Shown here: in pieces, positions 5,653-55,655 of the stretch | Numbering within the stretch: position 1 is the first letter of the stretch | Layout of the letters: every line of letters starts with the position of its first letter | From: Patescibacteria group bacterium | GTDB lineage: Bacteria; Patescibacteriota; Microgenomatia; Levybacterales; UBA12049 | Assembly (NCBI GenBank): GCA_035946335.1 | Contig: DASYZL010000004.1 | Span: 23,896 to 87,895 of the forward strand | Direction: 5' to 3' | Length of the DNA stretch: 64,000 nucleotides | Program-made: the position numbers and the translations under genes | Notes under the pieces: generated by a model | The model's input: the letters and a program-made list of their open reading frames with translations, nothing else | Told to the model about the DNA's origin: nothing | The model's database searches: none

Positions 5653-5655
5653 AGC

Positions 5656-7496: not shown

Positions 7497-7541
7497 TACA
7501 GTTTTAGCGTACCAACGGGACCCTTCTGTGTCAATATAACT

Positions 7542-8069: not shown

Positions 8070-8070
8070 A

Positions 8071-8565
8071 CTATGACGATGATAAACATGTCGCAAGAGA
8101 AGTACTATGGCAGAATGTATTACTTGCAGTTGTGCACTTGCTGTCAAACCATGAAACTGAGACGGTTACCTTCGTGTCCACATTGTTACAATAGGAAGAT
8201 CTCTGCTCGAAAGAAACCTGTCGAACAAATATGTCGGTGTTTTGTCCGCAACCGGTTGGAGGAGCAACCCAACAATACGTTCCATTTGGATTTGGGCTGC
8301 TCTGTGATGCATTGACACTTGTACATGTTTTTCCGATGCAATATGAACCTGACAAAGCATTGAAGGACGAAAAATTCGTTTCATGCATATTACGAATCAT
8401 TTCCATAGCCTGTTGAGCATATTGGGTTGCAAGATTTTGATTCTTGCTATATTCTTCATTACTGAGTGATGTTATTGTCGCTAAAGTGATAGCTCCAACA
8501 ACAATAACTCCTGCTGTCAATCCAACCAACATTTCAATAAGTGTTTGTCCTTTTTGCTTATTCAT
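8071..8565 (-). CDS. Minor (pseudo)pilin with class III signal peptide
   Basis: MNKQKG|QTLIEMLVGL (unusual Gln at +1, Glu at +5); Cys-rich C-terminal domain. Confidence 0.7.
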   Translation of the reverse strand: MNKQKGQTLIEMLVGLTAGVIVVGAITLATITSLSNEEYSKNQNLATQYAQQAMEMIRNMHETNFSSFNALSGSYCIGKTCTSVNASQSSPNPNGTYCWVAPPTGCGQNTDIFVRQVSFEQRSSYCNNVDTKVTVSVSWFDSKCTTASNTFCHSTSLATCLSSS

Positions 8566-9083
8566 TGGATAACTCCTGTAGTCGTCACGGTAATAGTAGC
8601 ATTCTGCTGAGAGCTTCCAACGGCCTTTCCTTGTAAAACAATAGATGCATTTGACGTAAGGCCGCTTACAATACCAGAAATTGGAGTAAAAACAAATGAA
8701 CGGTTTGTCGTGTTTATATTATCAATAATAACATCTGAGGGAAATGACTTACTCATGACGACGTGCGTGCTGCCTCCGCAAGAGATATCCAATTCGATGT
8801 TATCACTGGATTTGCATATTGGGCAATTAGATCCTCCACCCTTACAACAAACAAAAACTTCATAGGACTGCAACGGACCACCGCAAAGACCAGCTGGTTT
8901 TACTTGTGCAAGTACATCTGCACGTGCCGTTTGTAGATATGTTTGCAGATTGTATGTGCTTTCCCGTAAATCCTGTGATCTGCTATATGAAAGAAAAGAA
9001 GCAATACCAATTGAAGAAAGTATCGCAGTAACAGAAAAAACAATGAGTAATTCAATAAGGGTGAAACCTGCTGTCTGCTTCAT
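8562..9083 (-). CDS. Minor pseudopilin (GspH/FimT-like)
   Basis: MKQTAG|FTLIELLIVFSV prepilin motif; start placed at Met 9083, overlapping the upstream pilin stop by 4 nt. Confidence 0.7.
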   Translation of the reverse strand: MKQTAGFTLIELLIVFSVTAILSSIGIASFLSYSRSQDLRESTYNLQTYLQTARADVLAQVKPAGLCGGPLQSYEVFVCCKGGGSNCPICKSSDNIELDISCGGSTHVVMSKSFPSDVIIDNINTTNRSFVFTPISGIVSGLTSNASIVLQGKAVGSSQQNATITVTTTGVIQ

Positions 9084-19304: not shown

Positions 19305-21110
19305 GTGTACTGTAAAGGTATGACACCACAGGAAGATCTCCAAGCAACATCTCCTTTACCCGCTGGAAATCAAGAACATTCGCCTGCGTATTATAAAACA
19401 TTGAATACTCCTACGGAAAGTTATAAGAAACTGAAGGAAACGTTACATCCTCTGTTGCCCACAGAAACATCAGCTGAATTTCTAAGAGAAGGAAATGCTT
19501 CAGAATCACGACAGGATACAGGCAGTCATCTTTTTAATGAAGCGCCCCCAGGTATTGATATGCATGATACTGCTAACGACATCGTAGCAATCTCAACAGC
19601 ACTTACTAAAGATTTATCCGAAACACCACCCCAAATATCTACCGTCCGGCCACAACCACAGGCCACATATACCAGGCCACATCCAAGAAAATATCATTTA
19701 CTTCCTCTTAGCACTCCAACCACTCCTGCTTCAGCAGTACCAGCGGCAAGAAATAACAGATCTTGGATCTATGACGATGAGTCTCTCGCACAACCTGCAG
19801 TACAGCAACCGGACACACAAACACCAACAGTACCGTCTCAATTACCTTCCGCAGAAGTACAGGAAAATGGAAACACAAATATGAGTGAACAACCACCTGT
19901 ACTGCTACCGCAACCTGCTTCAGATTTGCAGCATAATGAACAACACACACCAACAGATGCACTAAGAAGCATTGACCCATTACGGGGAAGGCTTCTGGAT
20001 GCAAATGCAGCTGAGATGGTATTTACTGACGAAGAACTGAAAATGTATACCATACCACTCCTTGAAAACTTGCGTAAGGATAATAATAGGCTCAATGACA
20101 GGGAGTTTACGACTTTTAAGCTTGCGGCTTTGATGAGGAAAATACCTGCTATTGTAGAAGGAGAAACTAACATATCCGCAGAAGAAAGAGCAAACAGATT
20201 AGCGCTTATTGCGTATGCCGTACTCCGACAAACCCCGTATCCTGCTACCTATATGCTCGTTACGTCCCCTGAAGGCAATCTTCGTATTGAAACAATCCTC
20301 CCTAATTACAATCAAAAAAGAGAACTGTCTATTCTTGATTTTCACCATACACCTGAAGAGTTAAGAGCAATAAACTATGCGGATTTCCCTGATTCTGTAC
20401 AATTAGTATATGATAAACTTTTTCGAAGAAATGGAAACAGAGGATTTCCAAAAATCAAGGTGCTACCAGAAGGATTCGCATCCGCGGAACCAAGAACCCA
20501 TATATCAGAAATTCCCCTCAGTATTCATAAACAATCACTACTGAATCAGGATGACCGGCTTCAGGTTGTGCATGTTCAAACATCTCCAATCCATAAGCAA
20601 GGACATGATTATGATACCGGAGAATTACCATTCATCGAAGACCAACTCCTTCCTGCTTCTGCTTTACGTGTTGCACATTATAGCGACACTACTATTCCTA
20701 TGACAAAAGCACAACTGGAACAGCATGCAACCTGGTCACGTGGCTCATCAAACGGTGTACCAGAGCAAACTACTACTCCAATAAAAGCAACAGAAAGAGA
20801 CCATACAGTAAAACATCCTGATTTACGTAATGTAATGGAATACTTCGCAAAAACACTTTTATATAAGCAGAAAAGGACACAACAGGAAACCGAACTAGCT
20901 GTGAGGTGGTTCAGAAAACTTTCAAAGCATAATCGGCAGAGTATTTTTTACCATAATGCACTGGCAACGCTTCTTTATGCGCTAGGAGACCGTGATGGAT
21001 CATTCAGAGAACAAGCAGAAGTTATGCGGCTGGAACAACCAAGGCGGATCGCAGAACTTCGAAATAGGGTATTTGGACCAGTAAGTACTGGTAACATTGC
21101 ACAGAGATGA
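19305..21110 (+). CDS. Large hypothetical protein with Pro/Thr/Gln-rich N-terminal low-complexity region
   Basis: 601-aa ORF with no competing frames; about 200 aa of disordered N-terminus (PQISTVRPQPQATYTRPHP...), then an approximately 400-aa globular region with no recognisable motif; GC visibly higher than neighbouring genes. Confidence 0.6.
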   Translation: MYCKGMTPQEDLQATSPLPAGNQEHSPAYYKTLNTPTESYKKLKETLHPLLPTETSAEFLREGNASESRQDTGSHLFNEAPPGIDMHDTANDIVAISTALTKDLSETPPQISTVRPQPQATYTRPHPRKYHLLPLSTPTTPASAVPAARNNRSWIYDDESLAQPAVQQPDTQTPTVPSQLPSAEVQENGNTNMSEQPPVLLPQPASDLQHNEQHTPTDALRSIDPLRGRLLDANAAEMVFTDEELKMYTIPLLENLRKDNNRLNDREFTTFKLAALMRKIPAIVEGETNISAEERANRLALIAYAVLRQTPYPATYMLVTSPEGNLRIETILPNYNQKRELSILDFHHTPEELRAINYADFPDSVQLVYDKLFRRNGNRGFPKIKVLPEGFASAEPRTHISEIPLSIHKQSLLNQDDRLQVVHVQTSPIHKQGHDYDTGELPFIEDQLLPASALRVAHYSDTTIPMTKAQLEQHATWSRGSSNGVPEQTTTPIKATERDHTVKHPDLRNVMEYFAKTLLYKQKRTQQETELAVRWFRKLSKHNRQSIFYHNALATLLYALGDRDGSFREQAEVMRLEQPRRIAELRNRVFGPVSTGNIAQR

Positions 21111-31120: not shown

Positions 31121-31156
31121 ACCCTCGCTTGCAGTGAGGGTTTTTTTCTTTTTTTA
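31121..31156 (+). terminator. Rho-independent terminator after the argG-like gene
   Basis: ACCCTC-gcttgcagt-GAGGGT hairpin followed by a 16-nt T-rich run ending 2 nt before the next ATG. Confidence 0.6.
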
Positions 31157-31157
31157 T

Positions 31158-32726
31158 ATGATTGACGTAGAAGAAATACTTTATAGGCATGATGGTTCAG
31201 AAATTGCAAGAAAAGGAGATTTAGTTCTTAAAGCGTTCAAGCACCCGGAATTATTCCTTCCTGCGGACGAATCATTAGCTGAAGTAAACATTCCTTGGAT
31301 TATTTCAGAGGAACGCCATAATTTAATGGTTCTTTCTAAAAATCCAAATCCCCCAAGCATTTACTATGCTGCTAATACCGGTGCACTAGACTTTACGCCT
31401 GCGCTTGTTGATCCTCGTATCGATCCGCAAGAAGCAGAAGAAATGAGGGTGAATAATTATGTATATGCATTACGACCATTGGGACTACTTACTCCAAACG
31501 ATTTCCTTGTTTTTACTGAAGGCGATGAGGAATGGATGATAGATGCTTATGCAAGAGTAATGAAACCATCGATGGAATCGTTTGGTCTCAGTTTGCCACC
31601 AGAAGACCATCTTATACCAACTTCTAATGTAGAAAAATGGATACTGGAGCAGAACGGAAGTTTGGCTATATGTCCGAGTGTCCCACTTCCTTCTCATGTT
31701 GCAAGTTACGGAGAAAGTCAAGCTGATGCAGTAGGAAAATATCTGCGTACATTAGCATATAATATTGCAGGCACAAAAGAGAGAGCCCAGGAGTTCTTTC
31801 AAAGCATACTGACAGACCGATTTCCAGGAGGAATTCCAACACCTAAAACACAATATGTATATTATGATCCCCAAATACATAGTCCTGAGATGATTGCAAA
31901 TATAGTTCGGGATACTGAATTGGGAAAATATAAGTATCTTTTTATCAAATCTACCGATGGAAGATCAGGGGGAACTGGCAGCGTTGGCTCTCGGATTGAA
32001 GAGCTTGGAAAACACATCGCGTTATATCCAAATCCACAGAAGTTGCAATTTCAAAAGGGAATAAAGATTGCAAGCGGTCAAAACATATGCGTTTCAGCAA
32101 ATATTACACCTAATCAGGTATTTATCAATTCGCATACCGTTCAACGGATAAAACAGACCCCTGAAGGATATGCAAAACATGATGGAAATATATGGAGAAA
32201 GGGTTGGAGACATGGTGTTGGAATGCGCTCGGATATTTTAGAAACAGTATCTGCTGCACTGGATGCTTTACGGGTGGATGGTAGAATAGTCGGACCGGTA
32301 AATATTGATATGGCAGGCAGTAGATCGAAGCCGAGATCAGAAAGGAGAGGTTCAGTCATTATTCCTATTTGCGCATTTGTCATTGAAGTCAATGCGCGAG
32401 ATGCAGGCTCAAAGTTAGTCATAGAACCATTCCAAGATAAAAAAATAGACGACGAACCGATTGAAACAATTATGTCAAGAGCATCTGTAGAAATTCCAAA
32501 TGACAGTTTTCTCTCCCCAGATGGTTCACGTATTTTAGAATATACTCAGACAGATGCTCTTAAGGGAGAGAAAGAAGGTATGCAAATAGGCATTGTTGGA
32601 CCTAGCAGGAAGTATCCGGGATGTCGACCAAGAGCGGGCTTTGTTTTCAGCGGAACAGAAAATGTTAGCTTGGAAGATTTAGAAAATCTTGAGAAAAAAG
32701 TACTCAGTAAAATTGAGTCATGGTAA
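31158..32726 (+). CDS. Hypothetical protein with putative C-terminal ATP-grasp domain
   Basis: KYLFIKSTDGRSGGTGSVGSRIEEL (Lys plus Gly-rich loop) and GPVNIDMAG...AFVIEVNARDAGS (R/D...E-x-N) resemble ATP-grasp signatures; the roughly 270-aa N-terminal half is unassigned. Start set after the terminator; the ORF-track start at 31134 lies in the T-run. Confidence 0.5.
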   Translation: MIDVEEILYRHDGSEIARKGDLVLKAFKHPELFLPADESLAEVNIPWIISEERHNLMVLSKNPNPPSIYYAANTGALDFTPALVDPRIDPQEAEEMRVNNYVYALRPLGLLTPNDFLVFTEGDEEWMIDAYARVMKPSMESFGLSLPPEDHLIPTSNVEKWILEQNGSLAICPSVPLPSHVASYGESQADAVGKYLRTLAYNIAGTKERAQEFFQSILTDRFPGGIPTPKTQYVYYDPQIHSPEMIANIVRDTELGKYKYLFIKSTDGRSGGTGSVGSRIEELGKHIALYPNPQKLQFQKGIKIASGQNICVSANITPNQVFINSHTVQRIKQTPEGYAKHDGNIWRKGWRHGVGMRSDILETVSAALDALRVDGRIVGPVNIDMAGSRSKPRSERRGSVIIPICAFVIEVNARDAGSKLVIEPFQDKKIDDEPIETIMSRASVEIPNDSFLSPDGSRILEYTQTDALKGEKEGMQIGIVGPSRKYPGCRPRAGFVFSGTENVSLEDLENLEKKVLSKIESW

Positions 32727-33083: not shown

Positions 33084-34733
33084 ATGGCAAGCGTAGAGAG
33101 AGCATCCACTGGACAAGGAAGAGAAGCATCAAATTTATCTGCAGTTGACTATGCCCGATTAGCGGCAGACGCTAAGCTGCGAATTGCAGATGCAGGAAAG
33201 ACGAAATCATCGCAACCAGAACTTACTCCTGAACAGCAAAATCATCTCCTGGTAAATCGCCCTGACTTTACGTTTGTTGATGGAAAACCACAATACACCA
33301 TCGATCAACCATTCTTTTGGTATTATCATAGTCCTGATCTCACCGTATATAAACCTTCTCCGCTTATGCATGCCGAGGTAAAAGGACACAATCTTCCTTT
33401 GGCGTTTGAGTATCTGACAAAAGTCACTGATGATGCAACACAACGAGATGTATATTATCGTGTTATCACCAAAGGCGTCCCCCTTGAGATTCAGGACTCC
33501 TTAGAGCAGGAAAATAACTCAACCTACTATGCATCAGAGGAGCTAAAAAAAGCCATGGATAAACTCCGAAAACAAAAATCACAACGGCGTTCTGCTACTC
33601 AGATATCAACTAATTGGTTTATGGAGAGAGAAGAGCATTATTACTTTGACAAGACAGGAAGATTAGAATGGCAAAATTCTGTTTTTAGCTCTGAAAATAA
33701 ACAAATAGTTCAACTTGTACATGTAGAACGGCTTGATCCAACTCGCACTATTGTTCCTGAAGATTTGCCAGACGAAGCGGCCATCCGGAGAACAATGCTG
33801 AAACTTAACCAACGGCTTAATCTTAACACAAATGAAAACGTTATTCAAAAAATGGCAATTCCTGAGACCGATCCGTTACCAAAGAATTTATCAGAGCAGA
33901 AACAGAAGGAAGAATTAGAAAGAAGGAAGCCGTTTGGTTTTCGGGGATGGAATGTATTTGAACAAAGGGAAATTCAAACGCCTTTTGCAACAAATAAGTT
34001 ATATACACTACGGCTGATGACTGAGCGTAATGGCACAAGGTTATTTATTAAGTTGCTTAGCGCTGAACCGCTTCGTGAAAAACTTCGTGAACTTGCTAAA
34101 AAAGATCAAGAGAGACCTGAAGGTTCTCGCGAATTTGATTTTATTCCAGTATCGGAAAATAAAAAGCTTGTTTCTCTTGAGAGGGTTTGTTCTTGTATGG
34201 GAGCGAGAAGAGGGTGCGATTGTTATGAACAAATGCCGGAACGAGTCGCAGCAACATTACGGGAGAATGGCGTTATGGTACTTCTGCAACTTGATCAAAG
34301 CATGGCTTATGGAGCACCTATAAATGCCTTAGAATACAAACAAGCAGCAATATTTACAAATACATTAGATACTGGCAAAGCACCTGGTAAGGCTGATAAA
34401 GTTTTTCATACTACAATGCCAATCAGAAAAGGGTGGTTTGGGGAAAATACTCCTAAAGATTTAACAGCCTATAAGGATATTGGCGAACTCATCATAAAAA
34501 TCTTCGGTCCACACCGAGAAAAAGAAGAATTTTATGAAATGATAACCGATAATGCAGCAAAACTCGGGTCAATCGAATCATGGGGATTAAAAGTAAAGCG
34601 GAGAAAAAGCGAGAAAGCAGATGCTGAAGTGAGAAAAGCAAAAGCAGAACACTTAGATTATCTTCCGCCAGATACGTCTCGTTCAAGACGAACTGGGACT
34701 ACGACACCATCAACATTTGCTTCAGCTGCATAA
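33084..34733 (+). CDS. Large hypothetical protein (549 aa) with CSC-x6-CDC cysteine cluster
   Basis: Strong RBS AAGGAGAG; no TM or signal peptide; VCSCMGARRGCDCYEQ possible metal-binding motif; Lys/Glu-rich C-terminus; slightly elevated GC. Confidence 0.6.
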   Translation: MASVERASTGQGREASNLSAVDYARLAADAKLRIADAGKTKSSQPELTPEQQNHLLVNRPDFTFVDGKPQYTIDQPFFWYYHSPDLTVYKPSPLMHAEVKGHNLPLAFEYLTKVTDDATQRDVYYRVITKGVPLEIQDSLEQENNSTYYASEELKKAMDKLRKQKSQRRSATQISTNWFMEREEHYYFDKTGRLEWQNSVFSSENKQIVQLVHVERLDPTRTIVPEDLPDEAAIRRTMLKLNQRLNLNTNENVIQKMAIPETDPLPKNLSEQKQKEELERRKPFGFRGWNVFEQREIQTPFATNKLYTLRLMTERNGTRLFIKLLSAEPLREKLRELAKKDQERPEGSREFDFIPVSENKKLVSLERVCSCMGARRGCDCYEQMPERVAATLRENGVMVLLQLDQSMAYGAPINALEYKQAAIFTNTLDTGKAPGKADKVFHTTMPIRKGWFGENTPKDLTAYKDIGELIIKIFGPHREKEEFYEMITDNAAKLGSIESWGLKVKRRKSEKADAEVRKAKAEHLDYLPPDTSRSRRTGTTTPSTFASAA

Positions 34734-36605: not shown

Positions 36606-37418
36606 CTACTCTCCTCCAAAAAGTCTTCTTATCCAATGCTTCAGTCGCTGCCAAAGCGACGGGTGTTCTTCTACGCCTTCAACATGTACTATTTGAGGTT
36701 GTTCTCTCGCTACTTCTGGTTTTATTTGTCCGCTGTCTAACATAGAAAATACTAATTTCAGAGTGCCATCGAAAAATGCGTTTGCTGGTACATTTTCTTT
36801 CGTTAAGCCGTAAATTTCTTTCAGAGAATACCAGTGGTAACTATCTTCTTTTCCTGTTATATCAACTTTTTCTTTATCAATTAACTCAACTCCAAGCCGA
36901 ACACGACCTTTTACAATCCGTTGCGGATCAGCAGGTTCTGCAAATGAATAGTGCGAAGGATGTTTGGTAAATTCTATAAATGGAATGCCACCATCACGGT
37001 TTGCCAAATTTGTATAACTTGTCTGAATCGTTGCACCAAGCTCCGAATCGCCAATATCATTCCTATAATTCACCAACAGTTGTCCTGTTTTTCTATCAAC
37101 CAACATGATACCAACTCCTGCTCGTTTTTGAGGATCCGTTGTTGCTGGCTCCTGTTTGATCGCGGGCTGCACATGTGATCCTTCTTTTTTTAACCCGACA
37201 ACATCAAAAAATTTTCTATCACCAGTGCCACCAATGTGGCCTAAATCACTGACGGGATCAGATGCGCTCATCACAGCACCTTGCTTATTAAATGCCTGCC
37301 ATCCTTTTCCAAATGTATCGCTCAAAGGAACTTCTGTTGTTCCTGGAGGAAGATTACCCGCATCACCAGCTTGTATTCCTTCACGAAACCTTGCTGGAAG
37401 TTCTGAAATTCCCGGCAT
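36606..37418 (-). CDS. Hypothetical protein
   Basis: 270-aa ORF of elevated GC convergent with the SIMPL gene (1-nt gap); no recognised motifs. Confidence 0.5.
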   Translation of the reverse strand: MPGISELPARFREGIQAGDAGNLPPGTTEVPLSDTFGKGWQAFNKQGAVMSASDPVSDLGHIGGTGDRKFFDVVGLKKEGSHVQPAIKQEPATTDPQKRAGVGIMLVDRKTGQLLVNYRNDIGDSELGATIQTSYTNLANRDGGIPFIEFTKHPSHYSFAEPADPQRIVKGRVRLGVELIDKEKVDITGKEDSYHWYSLKEIYGLTKENVPANAFFDGTLKLVFSMLDSGQIKPEVAREQPQIVHVEGVEEHPSLWQRLKHWIRRLFGGE

Positions 37419-37463: not shown

Positions 37464-38420
37464 TTAATGCTTGTTCCCGCTATGGAAACTCTTATGTACT
37501 TCTCTCAATTGTTTATTGGTTATGTGGGTATAGATTTGGGTTGTCGCAATATTTTTGTGTCCGAGCATTTCCTGAACAGAACGCAAATCAGCCCCGTTTG
37601 TTAATAAATCCGTTGCAAATGAATGTCTTAGCGTATGAACTGTTGCATCAATGGGAATTCGTGCATGTTTTACCTGTTTTTTTACCATCCGCTCAATCGA
37701 GCGGGGAGTGAGCCGCATTTTTTCTCCGTTATTTTCTTCATCTTTTCTTCCGGAATAGCGGATAAAAAGGGGTTTGAAGCTATCTTTTCGCTCATTCAGA
37801 TACATTGCAATCCAATCTGCAGCTCTATCTGAAATAAATACAATACGTGCCCGTCCACCCTTACCGATAACACCGAATTCTTTCCGCTCTAAATTCACCT
37901 GTTCATGGTTTAATTTACAAAGCTCTGAAACCCGAAGACCAGTTGAGAATAAGAGTTCGAGTATTGCGCGATCCCTAATACCTTCCTCTTTAGATGTATC
38001 AACACTTGTTACAAGGCGTTCAACCTGTTCCCGTTCCAGAAATTTTAGGCTCCTGCTTTCTGTTTTTGGTAAATCGATTTTTGATGGTTCAAGGGTAGGA
38101 AAGTCATTCTTGATAAGGAACCGTAGAAACGAACGAAGCGCAATCACATAGTAGTTTTGTGTCACCCGTTTTAACGTTAATCCTTTATCGTCAACTTTAT
38201 TTGCCAGATAACCACGATATTTTCGTACAGTTGCTATATCCAGATCTTTCAAACTTTTTCCTGGCAGGGTGGAGGAGAACCAGACAGCAAATATCTCCAG
38301 ATAGTGCTGGTAATCCCGAATAGTCAGTTTGCTTGCATTTTTTTCAATAGAAAGGTATTCGAGAAACTGGTTAATCTGCGTAATAAGTTGTTCTTGTTGA
38401 AGAGAGAGTGATGCAACCAC
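37464..38420 (-). CDS. xerC: Tyrosine recombinase XerC/XerD
   Basis: N-terminal core-binding domain, R...HTLRHSFATDLL...LGH...TQIYTH catalytic RHR-Y signature. Confidence 0.9.
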   Translation of the reverse strand: MVASLSLQQEQLITQINQFLEYLSIEKNASKLTIRDYQHYLEIFAVWFSSTLPGKSLKDLDIATVRKYRGYLANKVDDKGLTLKRVTQNYYVIALRSFLRFLIKNDFPTLEPSKIDLPKTESRSLKFLEREQVERLVTSVDTSKEEGIRDRAILELLFSTGLRVSELCKLNHEQVNLERKEFGVIGKGGRARIVFISDRAADWIAMYLNERKDSFKPLFIRYSGRKDEENNGEKMRLTPRSIERMVKKQVKHARIPIDATVHTLRHSFATDLLTNGADLRSVQEMLGHKNIATTQIYTHITNKQLREVHKSFHSGNKH

Positions 38421-38537
38421 AATTATATTGTGCGACGTGATATCGCTTTTGTCAAGGACTCAGCAGCATTGCATTTATCTTGTCGTCGTGGTATTTTGTA
38501 TGCTCTTAACTGCTCTTTGAAAGCAGTCATTATTTTT

Positions 38538-40337
38538 ATGACACAGGAAGGAAATGATAGCAATAGAATACCAGAGAGCATTGGAGGAAATGAATTCCTG
38601 CATCTTTTGGCTGTACAAACAAGAGAAGTTCTCCCATATCTCAACCTGCGAGACGCGCAGGGAAATCTTGTCGATATTGCACAAATTGACGCAACTGAGC
38701 AATCAGAAGTTATTTATTCTTTGATTGGTAACTATATTTTTGACAGAGGTCTTTTACACCCTCCTCAGAATATTTCTATTCCATCCCGTTTTCAATCGGT
38801 TACAGAAGAGATGAGAAGACATGTGCAGGCACAACGAGAGCCACTTTCAGTTTTGAACCCCTCACTGCTTTACCGATTTCTTTCTGCTGGAGGAAAAATT
38901 GAAGGAGATTTTGACATCCGGCAACTCGACGTAGCAAACGGAGTCAGCATTGAAATCGGAGATTTACTACTACACGATATTAACTCAAGCGTAATCAAGA
39001 ACCTTGGAAATAATCATTATATTTTTCGTTATTACGGTGATTCATTTACTGTTGCCAGAATAGGAAATGGAACACCACCCTCACCCGAAACAATCGCAGC
39101 ATATGCACAACAAGCACGGGCTATTTTTCCTTCAAGTGAAAATTCACTTCAGTTAGTATTTGAAGCGAGAGGGGTAGAACCGGGGACAGGAGAAAAAATA
39201 CCGCTATACCTTCTAGAGCGTCCTGATTTTATCGAACTTTCACATGGACAACGTATACAACGATTAATACGTTTTCATCCAGCCGTAGAAAGAGATTTAG
39301 CGATAATTAATAGCATTATAGGAGAGGGGAGTACCAGCGTACAGCAAGCATTACTAAAACTGATAGAGGATGCATTATACGATCCAAAACTCGAGGCGCT
39401 TGCAAGAAAAAAATCTCTCGAGTTAGGAATTAATGTATTTTACCATGGGAACCGTGATAATTTTTTGGATTATCTTCATAGCATAAGACAACCAGTGTGG
39501 ATAAACCGCTATGATGCGCCTGGATTAAAAGAAATTAACGATAATTCTCGCTTTGGTCCAAAATTTGGTGATGATTTCATACTTACAAATATTGATATCA
39601 CGACAGATGCAATTGCGGAATTGTTTCGCGAACATCATGGGGAGCCTTACGACAGACAACTAAGAGATATAGATGAAGTCAGGCTCTGGATCAATGCAGA
39701 CGATTTTTTCCAACCTCTTCCTTCTCGGATTGAACAACTGGATCAACAAAGCCGCAAGCAGGTTATCGAGGCGCTTATGCTGCGTGTTACAAGCAGACTT
39801 GCGCGAAAATATCAATTACAGAATTCAAGAACAAATACATCGATGACTATTCCTGTTATATCAAGCGCAGACCATCGACGATTTGCACCGACAGAAGGTG
39901 AAAGTTTTATTGCATATCTTGGATTATCTCGAGCTTCAGTAATGAAATCAAATAGCGTAAAATATAAAAATAGTTACTATGATTATTATGAAAACCCATT
40001 AAGTATTCCTACAGATTATATTTTGTATCTTGCAACATATTTTGCTCCAAATGAGAGAGGACTCTCCCGCACAAGAGCAATGGGAATACCAAAAAAATTG
40101 TGTGACTATCTATGGAATGCTTGTTACCCAAGGGGAGCGTTTAATACAAAGGATTTTGAATTAAGCACAGATCCATCCAGTTCCCATTATATTAATCCTG
40201 CGTTATTCATGGAATATATGAAGCCAATTTTTGACCATGTACCAACGAGAAGAGGAAAAAGTAGTATTTCGGACTTATTGAATACAGCAAAGGAATTTGT
40301 CGAACAAAGAGTATCAAAAGCAAGGATAAGAAGGTAA
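38538..40337 (+). CDS. Large hypothetical protein (600 aa)
   Basis: Clean 600-aa frame; start placed at the ATG at 38538, leaving a 117-bp divergent intergenic region with xerC (the ORF-track start at 38430 abuts xerC); no TM helix and no recognisable motif. Confidence 0.6.
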   Translation: MTQEGNDSNRIPESIGGNEFLHLLAVQTREVLPYLNLRDAQGNLVDIAQIDATEQSEVIYSLIGNYIFDRGLLHPPQNISIPSRFQSVTEEMRRHVQAQREPLSVLNPSLLYRFLSAGGKIEGDFDIRQLDVANGVSIEIGDLLLHDINSSVIKNLGNNHYIFRYYGDSFTVARIGNGTPPSPETIAAYAQQARAIFPSSENSLQLVFEARGVEPGTGEKIPLYLLERPDFIELSHGQRIQRLIRFHPAVERDLAIINSIIGEGSTSVQQALLKLIEDALYDPKLEALARKKSLELGINVFYHGNRDNFLDYLHSIRQPVWINRYDAPGLKEINDNSRFGPKFGDDFILTNIDITTDAIAELFREHHGEPYDRQLRDIDEVRLWINADDFFQPLPSRIEQLDQQSRKQVIEALMLRVTSRLARKYQLQNSRTNTSMTIPVISSADHRRFAPTEGESFIAYLGLSRASVMKSNSVKYKNSYYDYYENPLSIPTDYILYLATYFAPNERGLSRTRAMGIPKKLCDYLWNACYPRGAFNTKDFELSTDPSSSHYINPALFMEYMKPIFDHVPTRRGKSSISDLLNTAKEFVEQRVSKARIRR

Positions 40338-40346
40338 ATTGTTCAG

Positions 40347-41342
40347 CTAATTACATGCCTGAAACATTTCCACCTCCTGAATATACCGCAATATCAGTTG
40401 TTCTTTTGTTGCTGATGAAAATCCTTTATACCGGATGAAAAGCTTCAGCATCCGCAAGAAATACTGCCTACTGAGTGCTTTTAGAAGGGGCTTACCGTTT
40501 GTATCAAGAAGATTTTGAGCGTCTAAAAACATGCTTAGAAATTTTTTCCATATAAGTTTTTCTAACGTTGAATATTTTCCTCCACTCTTATCATAGAGAC
40601 TTTTTTTTGGTTCCAAGGTATGAAACATATGAGGCAACGTATAAGAAAAAACATCGTGATTATTCTTAGCGAGAACCGCAAGCATTCCTGGCCTAACATA
40701 TTCTGGGGTTCCCTTATGATTGGTTGGAGAAGAGAAAAAAGAGGGTAAGTACACAACTTCTCCCTGCACTGTTGTTTCTTTACCAAGTGGTTCCCGCGTA
40801 ATAGCGTGCATACTATTTGTTCGTTTGCTTCGTGGCTTATATCCTTCAGAAAAAAGAGATGTTAGAATTTCAAACGTCGTAATTACAATATCGTGCGGTA
40901 TTCCTTTAAAGGAATATACGTAGTTAAGTGTATGTATATTCCTTTTATATAAGTCTATCTCATCTTCTCTACGAAGAAAAATTTTATGGGAAGGAAAGTT
41001 TACAACCTGCAAAAGCGAAGATATCCCATCCTTACTAAGAAATAGCTCATCACAGATGATTACAATATCAATGTCATTTTGATATGTAGTTTTTTTACGA
41101 TATACTCCCGAACCGATAAGAAGTATTGTTATAGGTAATTGTGTCTTTTCTGCATTTTGCAAAATATTTTTCATAACTAGGGATATTCGTATTTGTCTTG
41201 CTCTCACATCTTTGGAAGAAAATTTCGCTCGTTTTCTTCTCTGTTTTTCTTCAAGTTTAACGCTCTCCCTTGGTCTTTTTAACCACGAAAAAGGAACTGT
41301 TGGCAAGTGCTGCTGTTCTTGGTAAAAACTTTGAATCGTCAT
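40347..41342 (-). CDS. Pol-beta superfamily nucleotidyltransferase with C-terminal helical domain
   Basis: LLIGSGVYRKKTTYQNDIDIVIICDE is a GS-x11-DxD NTase motif with a downstream PHDIV acidic residue; the basic N-terminal extension may be non-coding (alternative start at Met 41174). Confidence 0.6.
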   Translation of the reverse strand: MTIQSFYQEQQHLPTVPFSWLKRPRESVKLEEKQRRKRAKFSSKDVRARQIRISLVMKNILQNAEKTQLPITILLIGSGVYRKKTTYQNDIDIVIICDELFLSKDGISSLLQVVNFPSHKIFLRREDEIDLYKRNIHTLNYVYSFKGIPHDIVITTFEILTSLFSEGYKPRSKRTNSMHAITREPLGKETTVQGEVVYLPSFFSSPTNHKGTPEYVRPGMLAVLAKNNHDVFSYTLPHMFHTLEPKKSLYDKSGGKYSTLEKLIWKKFLSMFLDAQNLLDTNGKPLLKALSRQYFLRMLKLFIRYKGFSSATKEQLILRYIQEVEMFQACN

Positions 41343-41576
41343 AAAGGGTTAATATTTAAATCTATTATTTCTTTTTAAGAATAAAATAGAAATTCCGTAA
41401 GAATTTTAGCAAGACGAAACCTATAAAATGGTTTGCATCTTTAGGTTGGCAGAGATATGTTTTCTATCATGTATTGTCCCTTATTTTCCATGGAAATGCA
41501 AGAATGATGTTCTAAACAGCAAAGTATGAGTAAGAAACTTCTTGCAAGCTTCTGGCTGAACTTGTATAGTTTTTGT

Positions 41577-42488
41577 ATGACCCATTTCTTGCTTGATAGC
41601 GGCGATCCAAAAGAATACCGCGAGATTGCTACGCTTACAAAGCAAGATGGGGACGAATTGTGGGGATCAACAACCAATCCGACGTTAATTGAAGAAACCG
41701 AAGAGCAGCTTATCCATCATAAAGAAACACCTCAGGAAGCGTTCAGGTTGCAAAAAGAACTCGTTACCGAAATTTTAGCAATTGTTCCCGGTGCTGTTTC
41801 TGCAGAAGTCTATGCAGATAACCATACCAGCGCAGAACAAATGGCGGAGCAGGGAAGAGAGATCGCTTCATGGCATGAGCGGATTGTCGTAAAATTACCG
41901 ACAACACTTGAAGGATTAAAAGCACGTACCTTATTACGAAAAGATGGTATTACGATTAATAACACGTTAGTCTTTTCCCAAGAGCAGGTTTTTGCGATTA
42001 CACTCCACGAACAATTGATGAAAAAGATCTACGGAGAAACAAACAATCATGTTCCTTGTTTTATCTCTCCGTTCGTTGGGCGACTCGATGATACAGGAAT
42101 AAACGGTATGTCACTTGTATCAAATGCGCTGAGCATAACACATCAATGGTTTGAAAAAGATCTCGTGTGGATATTGGAAGCTTCAGTACGGAATGTTTCG
42201 CATCTCAAAGCAGGAATTGACATGGGATGTGAACTAATAACCGCTCCCGCAAAGATATATAGAGAATGGTTCAGGCTTTCGGAAAAAGAAAAACTTACGA
42301 TTTATGTAGAAGCTCCAGCAATACTACAGACAATATCTCTTTGGGTTCCTTCAGATACGCTAAGAAACATTGCAACGCCAGAAGAATTAATTGGTGCAAT
42401 AGAATCGGGAAAACTCAATATTAATCATCAGCTCACTGACACGGGAATTGAAAAGTTTGCTGCAGACTGGAAAAAACTATTTACTTAA
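41577..42488 (+). CDS. tal: Transaldolase family protein (Tal/FSA-like)
   Basis: FLLDSGDPKE...GSTTNPTLI, VKLPTT.EGLKA, ISPFVGRLDD Schiff-base Lys region; start set at Met 41577. Confidence 0.85.
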   Translation: MTHFLLDSGDPKEYREIATLTKQDGDELWGSTTNPTLIEETEEQLIHHKETPQEAFRLQKELVTEILAIVPGAVSAEVYADNHTSAEQMAEQGREIASWHERIVVKLPTTLEGLKARTLLRKDGITINNTLVFSQEQVFAITLHEQLMKKIYGETNNHVPCFISPFVGRLDDTGINGMSLVSNALSITHQWFEKDLVWILEASVRNVSHLKAGIDMGCELITAPAKIYREWFRLSEKEKLTIYVEAPAILQTISLWVPSDTLRNIATPEELIGAIESGKLNINHQLTDTGIEKFAADWKKLFT

Positions 42489-43940: not shown

Positions 43941-44752
43941 AATCAACCATATTTACAACCTCGTAGAATACCCTAGGACGCGTTTTTATTGAAAATCCAT
44001 ATACTTACTCACTCAAGGTATATATTTTCTCAAGATTCTCTACGGTTTTCTTAAAATCAACTTCTCTAAGACATCCTGTAGTAGGGGATTGGCACTGAAT
44101 ATCGCTTAAGGTGCAGGAAATGGACTGGTTATCCCTCGAGTAAGATGAAAATAATATTTATCTTTTGCATTGATTTGAATGGAGGTAAAAATAAACCTGT
44201 TCCCCAGAAAGAATGCTCATCACGTCGTAAAAGTATTATTGTGCGACGTAATGAATTGAGCCTCCCGTCCATCAATCTTCGCTGTTTTCATGACAGTAAG
44301 AAGAGTGAAGAACTGCAGCTTTGTAGATAGCATGAGGAATGCTTATGCGTCTTATTGTCCTTGCACCACCTTCGTTGTACTTAGTCTTGCCAATATCAAC
44401 AGCCATTCTATCCGTTTCGTAAGAAAGGCCGTTCGTATTTTTTTTATCATATTAGCACTTATCTGTAGAGAATGAGAGAACAATACTCCACTACGCATGT
44501 GATTACAGTTAATTGCATGTATAAGTCTCTTACTCTTAGCTCATGTCTTTCTATTTATGTCTGTATCTCTTCTGGAGATCCGTGAAAACTGAAGCCAATT
44601 CCCTGTGAAAACTTATAGTTTATCCACATTTGTATTCAGTAATTATTATAGGATATTAACTATATCACTCTATATCACCTACCGCCTCTTCTTCATTTCC
44701 TGTTATTTTTAAATGACGTCTCTCTTCCCTGCTCGTGATGCTATCGTAGAAT

Positions 44753-45295
44753 TTATTGAGGTTTATTTTCTGATTTTGTTCTCTGCAGAAGTAAGTAATC
44801 TTTTCCCTGATGCTGCTGTAAGTACATTTGCTCTGCTAAATCTAGCGATCCGCTAATTGCAGTTTGCAAATCAGCACCATTCGAAAAGCCCTCCAAAAAT
44901 GCTTGTCTTCCATGTAGTAAACTTTCCTGCAAGACGGATCTTCCCCCTCTCCTTATGACAGATCTAAGATATGTTGGTTCTGGAAAGTATGTAAACATAT
45001 TTTTAACATATTCTGTGAGTACTGCTTCATCGGAAGATTCTTGACCTTGTTCATTTAGTGAAAGCAGGCGTGCATCTAATGTTGTTATTGCCTGCCGTCT
45101 CATTTGATCATTTCCAGCAATAAGTGCCACATTTTGTAAGGCATTCTTCCACTGCCTTTCTCTGATAGCTGTAGTATTAGTGATTCCAGTGAATCTATTT
45201 TGTGTAACATCTAGGCCTTGAATATTTGGTTCAAATCCTACGTCTGTAGGAGAAGGAACTAATGTATGTTTAATGTGAATTTCCTGATCGTCCAT
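44753..45295 (-). CDS. Hypothetical protein
   Basis: 180-aa soluble ORF with no recognised motif. Confidence 0.5.
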   Translation of the reverse strand: MDDQEIHIKHTLVPSPTDVGFEPNIQGLDVTQNRFTGITNTTAIRERQWKNALQNVALIAGNDQMRRQAITTLDARLLSLNEQGQESSDEAVLTEYVKNMFTYFPEPTYLRSVIRRGGRSVLQESLLHGRQAFLEGFSNGADLQTAISGSLDLAEQMYLQQHQGKDYLLLQRTKSENKPQ

Positions 45296-53671: not shown

Positions 53672-55234
53672 TTAATTTCCTTTTGCTATTCTTGCCCGTG
53701 CCCGTGCCGTCGGACCGCCATTTCCTACTTGTTTTGCTTGCATCGGTTGCCCTTTTCCGCAATTGGGAATTGGGAAAATATTGAAATCATTCCCCAGTGC
53801 ATCTATTGACATAAAAAAATCTTTTGAATCGGCAGTAATACGTCCATTACGGTACACCTGTCCTACCTGTCCGTTTTTTATTTCATAGATAAGTCGTGGC
53901 GCGATCTGAAAATTTTCTCTTGATTCGGAAATGGATGGAATTCTATGTCCTACCGCGTAGTATCCATTCGTAACTTCCGAAATAATTTTTTTCGGGTCTG
54001 TTTTGCCCGGCGCAATGGCAGACTGGGACATACGGATAAGCGGAACAACTGATGCATCATTCGCTTTATAGTGTCCGTTTGGCTCTTTCCCGATAGTTAC
54101 TGCTGTTTGACGACTATTCATAAAGTCATGATATATGCCATCCTTAATATGGTATACACGCTTGGCCTGTGTCCCTTCATCATCAAATGCATAGTGTCCG
54201 TATCCGCCTTTTAACGTCGGGTCTGAAAATGCAGTAAGGAGTTTTGAACCAACCTGCTTACCCACCATATTATCTTGTAAATCTTTGAAAAACCATGAAC
54301 GTCCTGCATACCCGGTTTCCATCTTTAACGCACGATCTAACTCTGAGGGATGGCCAATAATTTCGTGAGCGAAGAGTGCAACTAAATCAGGGTCCAGTAC
54401 AACAGTCACTGCTTTATCTGTAGCCGGAGCTGGTTTCGCATTACAGAGTTGCACTGTTTCGTCTGCAATATGTCTGGAAAACTGTTCAAACGTCTGTTCA
54501 TGAGAGTTTTTCCCCTCAGTGAGTGCTTCAAAGCCAAGCTGATTTCCTGTATGGTGATACAAATCAATAACTTCACCAGAATCGTTGACAGAAACAAGAA
54601 AAATTGTTCCACCGCTTGAACAATACGATTGATCAATGCATGTTCCTTCTGAAGACACAAATAACTGTCTGGTAATTGAAGAATTCAAGACAACTTCAAC
54701 CCGTTTGACAAAGGAGTGATAGTTTTTTGCCTGAATAGCACATTGCATAGCATAATCAGTAATCTGCTTTGGTGATACATTTCGCGGATCAATGGCAAAT
54801 TCGGCTTCGATAGTTGCTTGATTGATATTGATAGGAGCAAGCGTCAACGCGCTAAGTGTTTTGGAAAAATCTTTATAGTTATTAATAAATACTTCTTTCT
54901 GCTTTGCATTTTCCAGTGCCCGCGTACGTGCAATTGTAATTGCTTCTTGTAAAACCTGGGTAAAGTTTTGAAAATCGATAATCCCCAACTGCCTGCCGTA
55001 AAATCCATTTGCTGCAAACCGGCTTCCCCCGATAACACGGACACCCATAGAAACATACCAGTCTTTGCTTGTCTGACGGGGATTGGAATCTTCTACATAC
55101 GCACCAACTCCCTCAGTTGCCTCTAACCGTACGTCAACATATTGTGTATCTGGTAGCTTGCCGGATTCTATGAGAATATGAGCGGCAGTATCTTTGATTT
55201 TATCAATATCGGTAATATGGAGCATGTCTATCAT
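53672..55234 (-). CDS. tldD: Metalloprotease TldD
   Basis: HEIIGHPSE HExxxH motif; start set at Met 55234 because the ORF-track N-terminal extension (to 55378) overlaps the tRNA-Leu gene. Confidence 0.9.
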   Translation of the reverse strand: MIDMLHITDIDKIKDTAAHILIESGKLPDTQYVDVRLEATEGVGAYVEDSNPRQTSKDWYVSMGVRVIGGSRFAANGFYGRQLGIIDFQNFTQVLQEAITIARTRALENAKQKEVFINNYKDFSKTLSALTLAPININQATIEAEFAIDPRNVSPKQITDYAMQCAIQAKNYHSFVKRVEVVLNSSITRQLFVSSEGTCIDQSYCSSGGTIFLVSVNDSGEVIDLYHHTGNQLGFEALTEGKNSHEQTFEQFSRHIADETVQLCNAKPAPATDKAVTVVLDPDLVALFAHEIIGHPSELDRALKMETGYAGRSWFFKDLQDNMVGKQVGSKLLTAFSDPTLKGGYGHYAFDDEGTQAKRVYHIKDGIYHDFMNSRQTAVTIGKEPNGHYKANDASVVPLIRMSQSAIAPGKTDPKKIISEVTNGYYAVGHRIPSISESRENFQIAPRLIYEIKNGQVGQVYRNGRITADSKDFFMSIDALGNDFNIFPIPNCGKGQPMQAKQVGNGGPTARARARIAKGN

Positions 55235-55342
55235 GTCGTTACAAAATATCAAATTAACATCAAGAATACAAGCAGTTTCCTTGAAAGGACTACGATTAAT
55301 AGTATATACTACAAACGCGATAATTAACCTGAAAATTTTCAT

Positions 55343-55427
55343 GCCGAAGTGGTGGAATGGCAGACACGAAGGTCTCAAAAACCTTTGGATGTAATAGTCC
55401 GTGAGGGTTCGACTCCCTCTTTCGGCA
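55343..55427 (+). tRNA. tRNA-Leu (anticodon CAA)
   Basis: Acceptor stem GCCGAAG/TTTCGGC (one G-U pair), anticodon stem AAGGT/ACCTT with loop CTCAAAA, long variable arm, T-arm GAGGG-TTCGACT-CCCTC, discriminator A; CCA not encoded. Confidence 0.85.
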
Positions 55428-55655
55428 CAAAGAGTTTGAGTTGCTCCAAGTTCCTCATTTTAATAAAAACCTGAACTGAAAGAAGTAAAATGTTTTAAAA
55501 AAGACAACAAACGAAAGGACTAAAAATAAAATATGAAATAGTCACGATAAGGAATATTAAGGTTTTATTTATATGAAGAACCTTTTAGATAATATACCTT
55601 CCTAATCCTCGCCTTTCGGTTTGGATTAGGAAACTAAGTAATTTCTCGAAAATCT

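What the first reader, a model, noticed from the sequence alone, without database searches (positions are those of the whole stretch)
37464..41342. Pol-beta nucleotidyltransferase convergent with a 600-aa orphan protein, adjacent to xerC/D
The 331-aa (or 275-aa) protein has the GS-x11-DIDI NTase motif, a downstream acidic PHDIV and a helical C-terminal domain. That architecture is shared by ANT-type antibiotic nucleotidyltransferases, CD-NTase/SMODS signalling enzymes and AbiEii/MenT-like toxins. It ends 10 bp from the stop of a 600-aa protein with no detectable domains (38538-40337). That gene in turn diverges from a tyrosine recombinase. NTase plus large-effector pairs next to recombinases are a recurrent pattern for defence or toxin modules, although the convergent orientation is atypical for a CBASS operon.
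Basis: inference. Interest (0 to 1): 0.5.

Follow-up and report, generated by a model that had tools for sequence, protein, structure and literature searches.

The report
Tandem-GGDEF protein paired with novel nucleotidyltransferase
The "orphan" 600-aa protein is a divergent two-domain relative of the enzymes that make the bacterial messenger c-di-GMP, and it forms a conserved back-to-back gene pair with a new small nucleotidyltransferase family in ultra-small (CPR) bacteria; nothing shows that the pair is an anti-phage or toxin system, or that it is linked to the neighbouring recombinase.

Summary

- **The family has two tandem GGDEF-like domains.** The first is usually canonical. The second has RRGGD-F, a one-residue deletion. 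In the window copy both motifs are degenerate (YGDSF, NADDFF), so it is probably a nucleotide binder or pseudo-enzyme.
- **The 331-aa protein is a sub-threshold Pol-beta-type nucleotidyltransferase.** It has one detectable homologue, which sits in the same tail-to-tail position next to a tandem-GGDEF homologue in a Saccharimonadales genome, between dnaK and dnaJ. This conserved pair suggests a functional link, on only two loci.
- **The defence reading has no support.** PADLOC gives nothing significant. No effector domain, phage or plasmid relative, flanking repeat or compositional island was found. Most family members lack the NTase and sit by acs, tkt or tal.
- **The recombinase is an unrelated Xer-type neighbour.**

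Verdict: a new variant of known kinds, moderately interesting; what the pair does is unknown.

The parts
37464..38420 (-). XerC/D-type tyrosine recombinase (318 aa). It is a neighbour, not part of the pair.
   Evidence: Pfam Phage_integrase 4.9e-43 plus Phage_int_SAM_1 3.4e-13. TIGR02225 XerD scores 249.6 bits (cutoff 329.6) and NF040815 XerA scores 220.5 bits (cutoff 220). The catalytic residues are read from the sequence: R (GLRVSE), HxxR (HTLRHS), H (LGH) and Y (IYTH). Codon-usage z is -0.4. No recombinase lies next to any homologue of the pair.
38421..38537 (.). Divergent 117-bp intergenic region between xer and the GGDEF-like gene. It holds a 6-bp-stem hairpin with a T-run (38509-38527) just upstream of the ATG.
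   Evidence: No Rfam match at E<=1. The hairpin count in the region is at the chance level (4 found, 4.2 expected).
38538..40337 (+). Tandem GGDEF-like protein (599 aa from ATG 38538; the ORF is open from GTG 38430).
38835..39185 (+). GGDEF-like domain 1 (about residues 100-216). It keeps metal Asp D126, N134 and G141-D142. The signature is R164-YYGDSF(165-170) in place of RxGGDEF.
   Evidence: Motif table. Alignment to DosC. 8 of 10 homologues keep [GA]GDE[FIL].
39243..39425 (+). Helical linker (about residues 236-296) with the family motifs RIxRLxxxHPE and LExxLFDPxLQ.
39432..39887 (+). GGDEF-like domain 2 (about residues 299-450). It has RYD326, LK331-EIN334-D335 and G344-D345. The signature is NADDFF (386-391), where the family has RRGGD-F.
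   Evidence: hhalign of domain 1 against domain 2 gives probability 87%, E 4e-6. The domain-2 profile alone hits DosC at 1.1e-4 and the T. maritima DGC at 9e-4. Pfam GGDEF hits this domain in P0013 and P0015 above the cutoff.
39906..40331 (+). C-terminal helical domain with a family-specific motif (W.FLA..LNP[YF][DE]KRG..RL+.LG; YFAPNERG in the window copy). Its function is unknown.
40338..40346 (.). 9-nt gap between the two convergent stop codons. The equivalent gap is 1 nt in the Saccharimonadales pair.
   Evidence: No terminator-like site was found here.
40347..41342 (-). Pol-beta-superfamily NTase-like protein (331 aa), a member of a new family with two known members.
   Evidence: Pfam Polbeta E 0.0039-0.031 and DNA_pol_B_palm E 0.046-0.21. 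It hits only itself among 5.8e9 proteins. The homologue L005:7682-8665(-) matches at BLASTP 3e-17, 27% identity over 305 aa. That homologue hits NTP_transf_2 at 0.017, Polbeta at 0.031 and MTPAP-like at 0.083. The two-sequence profile hits only the minimal NTase AF0614 (1ylq) at E 0.025.
41064..41117 (-). NTase active-site hairpin I76-GS-x11-DIDI-93. The third carboxylate, D151, is encoded at 40890-40892.

Best explanation
The locus holds three separate transcription units on a native Patescibacteria chromosome.

(1) The 600-aa protein belongs to a CPR-restricted family built from two tandem GGDEF (diguanylate-cyclase-fold) domains, joined by a helical linker and flanked by helical N- and C-terminal domains. 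In most members, domain 1 keeps the full catalytic and guanine-binding set. Domain 2 is a derived half-site that lacks the fourth-position Glu (RRGGD-F). Inference: the protein works as a single-chain pseudo-dimer of GGDEF half-sites that binds GTP or a guanine dinucleotide, and in canonical members makes c-di-GMP or a related product. In the window copy both signatures have decayed (YGDSF, NADDFF), so this copy most likely binds nucleotide as a sensor or pseudo-enzyme rather than cyclising it.

(2) The 331-aa protein is a new, very sparse Pol-beta-fold NTase. It has a conserved arginine/lysine-rich N-terminal tail and a helical C-terminal domain. Inference: it transfers a nucleotide onto an RNA or another acceptor.

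(3) The two genes are a conserved tail-to-tail pair and are therefore probably functionally coupled in nucleotide signalling. This is shown only by gene-pair conservation in two distant genomes.

(4) The Xer recombinase is an unrelated chromosomal neighbour. The locus is not a recognisable CBASS, Abi or toxin-antitoxin system.
For: - **Motif states.**. GG(D/E)EF is required for activity, with AGDEF an active exception (PMC3974145). Two GGDEF half-sites must pair for catalysis (PMC7825114).
- **CPR restriction.** Saccharimonadales, Microgenomates and Patescibacteria sources. The whole module is embedded in giant CPR proteins.
- **NTase.**
- **Pair conservation.** In L005/L006 the GGDEF2 gene (6001-7677, +) and the NTase homologue (7679-8665, -) sit between dnaK and dnaJ. 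These two genes are the only ones shared between L005 and the whole 64-kb window.
- **Native chromosome.** gyrB, gyrA, folD, pyrG, argG, dcd, tal and trehalase lie around the locus. GC content and codon usage are within the window's norm. No flanking repeats beyond chance.
- **No defence signal.**
Against: - The pair is seen in only 2 of about 8 distinct loci. The other family members have acs, tkt, tal or unrelated genes as neighbours.
- How closely the two genomes carrying the pair are related could not be calibrated, so inherited adjacency is not excluded.
- Convergent genes cannot be co-transcribed.
- The NTase assignment rests on sub-threshold HMM hits plus motif conservation. Its AF2 model was unusable (pLDDT 35).
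- Loss of catalysis in the window copy is inferred from motifs only.
- No c-di-GMP phosphodiesterase, PilZ domain or second GGDEF protein was found in the 64-kb window. The rest of the genome was not seen.
Confidence: 0.55

Rival explanations
1. The adjacency has no functional meaning. These are three unrelated genes, and the GGDEF-like and NTase-like genes are neighbours in two genomes only through shared descent or chance in compact genomes.
For: Most family members lack the NTase neighbour. The genes are convergent, so they are separate transcripts. There are only two instances. The relatedness of the two MAGs is unknown.
Against: Both flanks differ completely between the two loci, and nothing else is shared between L005 and the 64-kb window. 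The orientation and the tight stop-to-stop spacing are the same (9 nt and 1 nt). Both families are rare: 13 cluster representatives at 50% identity among 1.84e9 for the GGDEF-like protein, and self-only among 5.8e9 proteins in the word-indexed search for the NTase. The proteins are only 24-27% identical, which suggests long divergence.
Confidence: 0.25
2. This is a new defence or toxin module. An NTase (CD-NTase-like or MenT-like) would work with the large GGDEF-like protein as sensor or effector, moving as a two-gene cassette.
Against: All PADLOC hits are weak and cover only the 30-65 residues around the GS..DxD region. No hit to DUF1814/AbiEii, SMODS or ANT families appeared in Pfam at E<=1 to 10. 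No nuclease, TIR, patatin or transmembrane effector domain was detected. No phage, plasmid or viral-contig relatives exist. Composition is native and there are no repeats. The GGDEF2 family mostly sits beside core metabolic genes without the NTase. The genes are convergent, not an operon.
Confidence: 0.12
3. The 331-aa protein is not a nucleotidyltransferase; the GS..DxD pattern is fortuitous.
For: All HMM hits are below the curated cutoffs. The AF2 single-sequence model is uninformative. phmmer of the window protein, whole and as the core fragment, finds no NTase in the PDB.
Against: G77, S78, D90, D92 and D151 are invariant across two homologues of 27% identity. Both homologues independently hit NTase-superfamily models on the same stretch. 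The only PDB hit of the two-sequence profile is a minimal NTase. The motif occurs in 0.08% of shuffles.
Confidence: 0.08

Closest known systems
GGDEF diguanylate cyclases (Pfam PF00990; e.g. PleD, DosC, DgcZ, WspR)
   Different: There are two GGDEF-like domains in one chain, where known enzymes have one domain that homodimerises. The second domain carries a one-residue deletion (RRGGD-F). There is no RxxD I-site. The helical N-terminal, linker and C-terminal domains are family-specific, with no known sensor domain. The window copy has YGDSF and NADDFF, so it fails the signature.
Degenerate GGDEF receptors and pseudo-enzymes (e.g. PelD, PopA, LapD, FimX GGDEF domains)
   Different: Those proteins bind c-di-GMP through an I-site (RxxD) or a partner EAL domain. 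Neither is present here.
Two-palm pseudo-heterodimer cyclases (mammalian adenylyl cyclase C1-C2; Cas10 Palm1-Palm2)
   Different: They are far weaker matches than GGDEF. There is no HD or CARF context and no CRISPR genes. How the two domains pack in the model could not be inspected.
Pol-beta superfamily nucleotidyltransferases (minimal NTases such as AF0614, PF01909, PF18765; CD-NTases; Cid1/PAP-type enzymes)
   Same: The hG[GS]-x11-DhDh hairpin and a third Asp 59 residues after the second are present. The predicted order is helix, strand, GS turn, strand. A helical C-terminal half is present, as in ANT, CD-NTase and PAP enzymes.
   Different: No family model reaches its cutoff. At 331 aa the protein is too large for an MNT. 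It has no HEPN partner or Rx4-6H motif, and no DUF1814, SMODS or ANT match. Its basic N-terminal tail is not a feature of those families.
CBASS (CD-NTase plus effector operon)
   Same: An NTase sits next to a larger protein. The homologue gives a weak hit to a CBASS cyclase model (E 0.0037 over 53 residues).
   Different: The genes are convergent, not an operon. The partner is a GGDEF-like protein, not a recognised effector. PADLOC thresholds are not met, and the context is chromosomal housekeeping genes.

Membership tests
GGDEF domain superfamily (PF00990) | Significant sequence match to the family model or to solved members | tested here: met
   The window protein alone is sub-threshold (14.3 bits against 23.8). 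Its family profile hits 34 solved diguanylate cyclases, best at 7.8e-10, and 6 homologues pass the Pfam cutoff.
GGDEF domain superfamily (PF00990) | GGDEF (palm-like) fold | tested here: met
Active diguanylate cyclase | GG(D/E)EF signature, or the tolerated AGDEF/SGDEF variants | tested here: not met
   The window copy has YGDSF in domain 1 and NADDFF in domain 2. The requirement is described in PMC3974145.
Active diguanylate cyclase | Beta-1 metal Asp plus guanine-contacting Asn and Asp | tested here: met
   D126, N134 and D142 in domain 1; D326, N334 and D345 in domain 2.
Active diguanylate cyclase | c-di-GMP synthesis from GTP | not testable with these tools
   Needs an enzyme assay.
c-di-GMP receptor of the I-site type | RxxD motif five residues upstream of the signature | tested here: not met
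   No RxxD in the window protein or in the family consensus.
Pol-beta superfamily NTase | hG[GS]x9-13Dh[DE]h motif plus a third carboxylate | tested here: met
   I76-GS-x11-DIDI and D151, all invariant in the homologue.
Pol-beta superfamily NTase | Family HMM above its curated cutoff, or an NTase fold | tested here: inconclusive
   PF18765 scores 14.9-17.8 bits against 26.9. PF01909 scores 16 against 21 in the homologue. The profile hits AF0614 in the PDB at E 0.025. The AF2 model has pLDDT 35.
CBASS | CD-NTase/SMODS model match | tested here: not met
   The window NTase has no CD-NTase hit in PADLOC or Pfam at E<=1. The homologue reaches E 0.0037 over 53 residues only.
CBASS | Co-directional operon with a recognised effector (transmembrane, patatin, nuclease, TIR, etc.) | tested here: not met
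   The genes are convergent. The partner is GGDEF-like, with no effector domain.
AbiE / MenT NTase toxin systems | DUF1814-type NTase with an AbiEi-type antitoxin upstream | tested here: not met
   No DUF1814 or AbiE hit in Pfam or PADLOC. There is no small upstream partner gene.
MNT-HEPN toxin-antitoxin | A roughly 100-140-aa NTase adjacent to a HEPN protein with Rx4-6H | tested here: not met
   The protein is 331 aa. It has no HEPN neighbour and no Rx4-6H in its C-terminal half.
ANT-type antibiotic nucleotidyltransferases | Match to ANT family models | tested here: not met
   No ANT, KNTase_C or DUF4111 hits at E<=10 for the window protein and its fragments, nor at E<=1 for the whole window protein and its homologue. 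HMMER's filters may hide very weak matches.
Xer-type tyrosine recombinase (the neighbour) | SAM-like N-terminal domain, catalytic domain and R-K-H-R-H-Y residues | tested here: met
   residues read from the sequence. It is below the XerC and XerD equivalog cutoffs and just above NF040815 (220.5 against 220).
Integrated mobile element or defence island | Flanking direct repeats or tRNA, atypical composition, mobile-element relatives | tested here: not met
   Only chance-level repeats. Codon-usage z is -0.4, 4.3 and 0.9 against a window median of 2.2. The only tRNA is 14 kb away. No phage, plasmid or viral matches for the NTase and no viral-contig match for the GGDEF family.

The most novel reading that the evidence does not exclude
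The tandem-GGDEF protein and the new NTase together form a CPR-specific nucleotide-signalling system of a kind not yet described. A single-chain, asymmetric GGDEF pseudo-dimer (one catalytic and one degenerate half-site, analogous to adenylyl cyclase C1-C2 or Cas10) would make or sense a non-canonical guanine nucleotide. The partner NTase would write or relay this signal. The same module is also deployed inside giant multi-domain CPR proteins.
Probability: 0.15. Interest if true: 0.7.

Novelty: new variant of a known kind. Interest (0 to 1): 0.42.

Why it matters
CPR/Patescibacteria have tiny genomes in which most large "hypothetical" proteins are unread.

- This work turns one of them into a defined family: single-chain tandem GGDEF, absent from the curated libraries as an architecture.
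- It finds the same module inside 1.6- to 7.9-kaa giant CPR proteins.
- It pairs the module with a previously unseen NTase family.

If the pair is functional, it would be a handle on nucleotide second-messenger signalling in episymbiotic bacteria. It would also be a natural single-chain test case for how GGDEF half-sites cooperate.

If the pair is not functional, the result is still useful. It removes a false "orphan effector / defence island" call and shows that the recombinase adjacency is incidental.

Tried and rejected
- **Direct searches for the two window proteins.** Pfam, NCBIfam, PHROGs, PADLOC and phmmer against the PDB gave only noise or sub-threshold hits.
- **Word-indexed search of 5.8e9 proteins.** Both proteins hit only themselves. 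The family profile was swamped by canonical GGDEF-EAL proteins.
- **AF2 of the NTase from a single sequence.** Unusable, pLDDT 35.
- **NTase fragments against Pfam and the PDB.** Nothing new.
- **NTase against phages, plasmids and viral contigs.** No match. The GGDEF family has no match in viral contigs.
- **afdb50 fold library.** Not available.
- **The search for related loci with the 11-sequence alignment.** No conserved stretch was usable. A 5-sequence subset worked.
- **Integrated-element hypothesis.** No repeats beyond chance; a 16-nt, 15/16 match at 38426 and 44237 is at the expected chance level. Composition is native.
- **Invertible-promoter or riboswitch idea for the xer-GGDEF intergenic region.** No inverted repeats and no Rfam hit.
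- **P-loop reading of GSGVYRKKT,** suggested by a spurious G-alpha hit. Rejected because there is no GxxxxGK[ST].
- **NTase domain fused into the giant proteins or present in other loci.** Absent.
- **The 344- and 348-aa Pfam-less neighbours in L009 and L010 as hidden NTases.** They have no motif and no similarity.
- **Literature on tandem GGDEF-GGDEF architectures or CPR GGDEF families.** Nothing specific was found.


Full report
**Observation**

The window is a chromosomal stretch of a Patescibacteria (CPR) MAG. NCBI names the two target proteins [quoted passage not shown], on a 113-kb contig.

- a tyrosine recombinase at 37464-38420(-);
- a large ORF at 38430/38538-40337(+);
- a 331-aa ORF at 40347-41342(-).

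The last two are convergent, with 9 nt between their stop codons.

The 331-aa protein carries I76-GS-x11-DIDI and a later D151 (GIPHDIV). This motif is unique among the 64 window ORFs of at least 150 aa and arises in 0.08% of shuffles of the protein.

The surrounding genes are housekeeping: gyrB, gyrA, folD, pyrG, argG, dcd, an rmlC-like gene, SIMPL, transaldolase and trehalase. GC content and codon usage of the three genes fall inside the window's normal range. Their z-scores are -0.4, 4.3 and 0.9, against a median of 2.2 and an interquartile range of 0.9-4.3. Repeats flanking the region are at chance level. The only tRNA is 14 kb away.

**The 600-aa protein is a tandem GGDEF-like protein**

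Direct scans gave only a sub-threshold GGDEF hit (E 0.034). NCBIfam, PHROGs, PADLOC and the PDB gave nothing. The word-indexed search of 5.8e9 proteins returned only the protein itself.

A full HMMER scan of 1.84e9 cluster representatives found 13 remote homologues, at E 7e-12 to 3e-4 and 25-32% identity. Most are 485-624 aa. Two are giants of 4616 and 5270 aa.

Six homologues pass Pfam's GGDEF cutoff, and the hits fall at two different positions. The alignment (A1) shows two related domains:
- Domain 1 has the consensus DIGxLxxANQ..GDxLLR..VRxGGDEF.
- Domain 2 has the consensus RIDxPGxLKxIND..GYxxGDEFI..RRGGDF.

Further tests agree:
- hhalign of the two domain slices gives probability 87% and E 4e-6, so the second domain arose by internal duplication.
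- The whole-family profile hits 34 solved diguanylate cyclases, best DosC at 7.8e-10.
- The domain-2 profile alone hits DosC at 1.1e-4, with a one-residue deletion at the Glu of GGDEF.
- AF2 with the 11-sequence alignment gave pLDDT 80.2 and pTM 0.79.
- The top 48 Foldseek hits are all GGDEF proteins.

The predicted architecture is: N-terminal helices, GGDEF-1 (about residues 100-216), helical linker, GGDEF-2 (about 299-450), then a C-terminal helical domain with a family-specific LNP[YF][DE]KRG motif.

**Motif state**

Eight of ten homologues keep [GA]GDE[FIL] in domain 1, together with the metal Asp and the guanine-contacting Asn and Asp. The window copy keeps D126, N134, D142 and R164 but reads YGDSF. 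Its domain 2 reads NADDFF where the family has RRGGDF. There is no RxxD I-site.

Diguanylate cyclase activity depends on GG(D/E)EF, with AGDEF a proven exception (PMC3974145). Two GGDEF half-sites must pair for catalysis (PMC7825114).

I therefore infer that the family is a single-chain pair of one canonical and one derived half-site. I also infer that the window copy is more likely a nucleotide-binding pseudo-enzyme than an active cyclase. Both points are inferences from motifs, not shown.

**Distribution and context of the family**

Named sources are Saccharimonadales, Microgenomates and the Patescibacteria group. JGI annotated one member as "GGDEF domain-containing protein".

The entire module of roughly 480-515 aa is embedded in larger proteins:
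- giant proteins of 4616, 5270 and 7908 aa;
- a 1654-aa protein that also has a methyltransferase domain.

Across the distinct loci recovered, an all-against-all comparison of neighbours found these recurring partners:
- acetyl-CoA synthetase, convergent, in three loci;
- transketolase, in three loci;
- transaldolase, in L013 and the window;
- an RnlA/HEPN-like 165-aa protein, in two loci.

One locus also has an HD_5 (HD-GYP-type) protein two genes away (1e-21). No locus has a recombinase next to the gene. No relatives were found in viral contigs.

**The NTase and the conserved pair**

The window NTase has no hit beyond itself in 5.8e9 proteins. It has no relative in phages, plasmids or viral contigs.

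Its Pfam hits are weak and confined to the active-site hairpin: Polbeta at 0.0039-0.031 and DNA_pol_B_palm at 0.046-0.21. Its single-sequence AF2 model was useless.

The turning point came from the Saccharimonadales homologue P0007 (loci L005 and L006). There the tandem-GGDEF gene (6001-7677, +) is followed tail-to-tail, with a 1-nt gap, by a Pfam-less 328-aa gene (7679-8665, -). That gene is a homologue of the window NTase: BLASTP E 3e-17, 27% identity over 305 residues.

Evidence from this homologue:
- G77, S78, D90, D92 and D151 are invariant between the two proteins.
- A basic N-terminal EKxRRKRxK stretch and a C-terminal motif are also invariant, which favours the 331-aa start.
- The homologue independently hits NTP_transf_2 (0.017), Polbeta (0.031) and an MTPAP-like palm (0.083).
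- The two-sequence profile's only PDB hit is the minimal NTase AF0614, at E 0.025.

In L005 the pair sits between dnaK and dnaJ (hrcA-grpE-dnaK | pair | dnaJ, clpB, nusA). These two genes are the only ones shared between L005 and the entire 64-kb window.

Two rare families lie adjacent, in the same orientation, with tight spacing and unrelated flanks, in two genomes whose orthologues are only 24-27% identical. That is good but thin (n=2) evidence for functional coupling or co-mobility.

The NTase is absent from the other loci and from the giant proteins.

**Defence reading**

PADLOC gives only weak hits to NTase-type models over the roughly 30-65 residues around the motif:
- PDC-M63A at 0.011 and 0.0013;
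- PDC-M05A at 0.012-0.03;
- a CBASS cyclase model at 0.0037, for the homologue only.

PADLOC gives nothing for any tandem-GGDEF protein. There is no DUF1814/AbiEii, SMODS, ANT or HEPN signal. No effector domain was detected. The genes are not in an operon and show no mobile-element signature.

The Xer protein is a complete XerC/D-type recombinase. It scores 250 bits on XerD, passes the NF040815 cutoff, and has its catalytic residues. It is co-directional with the downstream 270-aa gene rather than with the pair.

The CBASS, Abi or toxin assignment and the recombinase association do not survive.

**Verdict**

The locus is best described as a conserved convergent pair: a degenerate member of a CPR-specific tandem-GGDEF family and a new Pol-beta-type NTase, lying by chance next to a Xer recombinase.

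| Reading | Probability |
|---|---|
| Descriptive explanation as a whole | 0.55 |
| Adjacency without function | 0.25 |
| Novel defence or toxin module | 0.12 |
| "Not an NTase" | 0.08 |

Separately, taken on their own:
- that the large protein is GGDEF-like: about 0.95;
- that the pair is functionally linked: about 0.6.

Novelty is "new variant of a known kind". Interest is moderate (0.42).

Noticed in passing
P0004 (5270 aa, module at 3982-4462); P0009 (4616 aa, 2192-2706; VanY domain at 724-817); P0023 (7908 aa, 5484-5998); L004:40-5004 (1654 aa): The complete tandem-GGDEF module is embedded in giant multi-domain CPR proteins. One also has a VanY peptidase domain and another a SAM-methyltransferase domain followed by a hydrophobic C-terminal region that looks membrane-spanning by eye (not tested). 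P0004 has a weak HD-CE hit just after the module (E 0.0026).
   Followed up: partly
L005/L006:3981-9668: In the Saccharimonadales genome the GGDEF2/NTase pair lies between dnaK and dnaJ, inside what looks like an hrcA-grpE-dnaK-dnaJ heat-shock cluster (the usual adjacency of dnaK and dnaJ is from general knowledge, not tested here). This suggests the two genes were inserted as a unit.
   Followed up: partly
L003:4537-5845; L007:872-1366: An HD_5 (HD-GYP-type) protein (1e-21) and an RnlA/HEPN-like 165-aa protein lie just upstream of the tandem-GGDEF gene in L003. The 165-aa protein recurs in L007 (E 1.8e-70 between the two).
   Followed up: partly
L013:2566-4965; window 41526-42488; L002, L003, L007: Non-oxidative pentose-phosphate genes recur next to tandem-GGDEF genes: transaldolase in L013 and the window, and transketolase in three loci, which also carry acs. 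This may be ancient core-genome synteny or a metabolic link.
   Followed up: partly
P0004 C-terminus and L004:40-5004 N-terminus: By eye, the two proteins share a stretch (…L[YW]HG..KPL.V.LNY…G.GLYTTDD…) that flanks the GGDEF module in both multi-domain proteins. Pfam gave no hit for it.
   Followed up: no
window 43941-44752: An 812-bp stretch has no ORF above 61 aa and no credible Rfam match (best is SNORD98, E 0.72). That is unusually long for this compact genome.
   Followed up: partly
window 19305-21110, 31134-32726, 33084-34733, 36606-37418, 44753-45295: There are several more large proteins without significant Pfam matches (601, 530, 549, 270 and 180 aa). The 270-aa one has a weak NDP-hexose 2,3-dehydratase hit (E 0.0039) and is co-directional with xer. 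Orphan status is common in this genome and is not a mark of an island.
   Followed up: partly
L002 (CAYSLG010000035.1): This contig is labelled 'uncultured Gammaproteobacteria', but its gene order (tandem-GGDEF, acs, tyrS) matches Patescibacteria locus L003. It is probably mis-binned. The GGDEF gene is broken by N-runs there.
   Followed up: no
window 55343-55428 and 53672-55378: tRNA-Leu(CAA) on the + strand overlaps the 5' end of the mechanically listed 568-aa ORF on the - strand (TTG start). The true start of that gene is probably further downstream.
   Followed up: no
L013:5107-9416: A cluster of toxin-antitoxin-type genes (PIN, a weak BrnT hit, a weak MazE hit, PIN) lies directly downstream of the tandem-GGDEF gene in this locus.
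   Followed up: no
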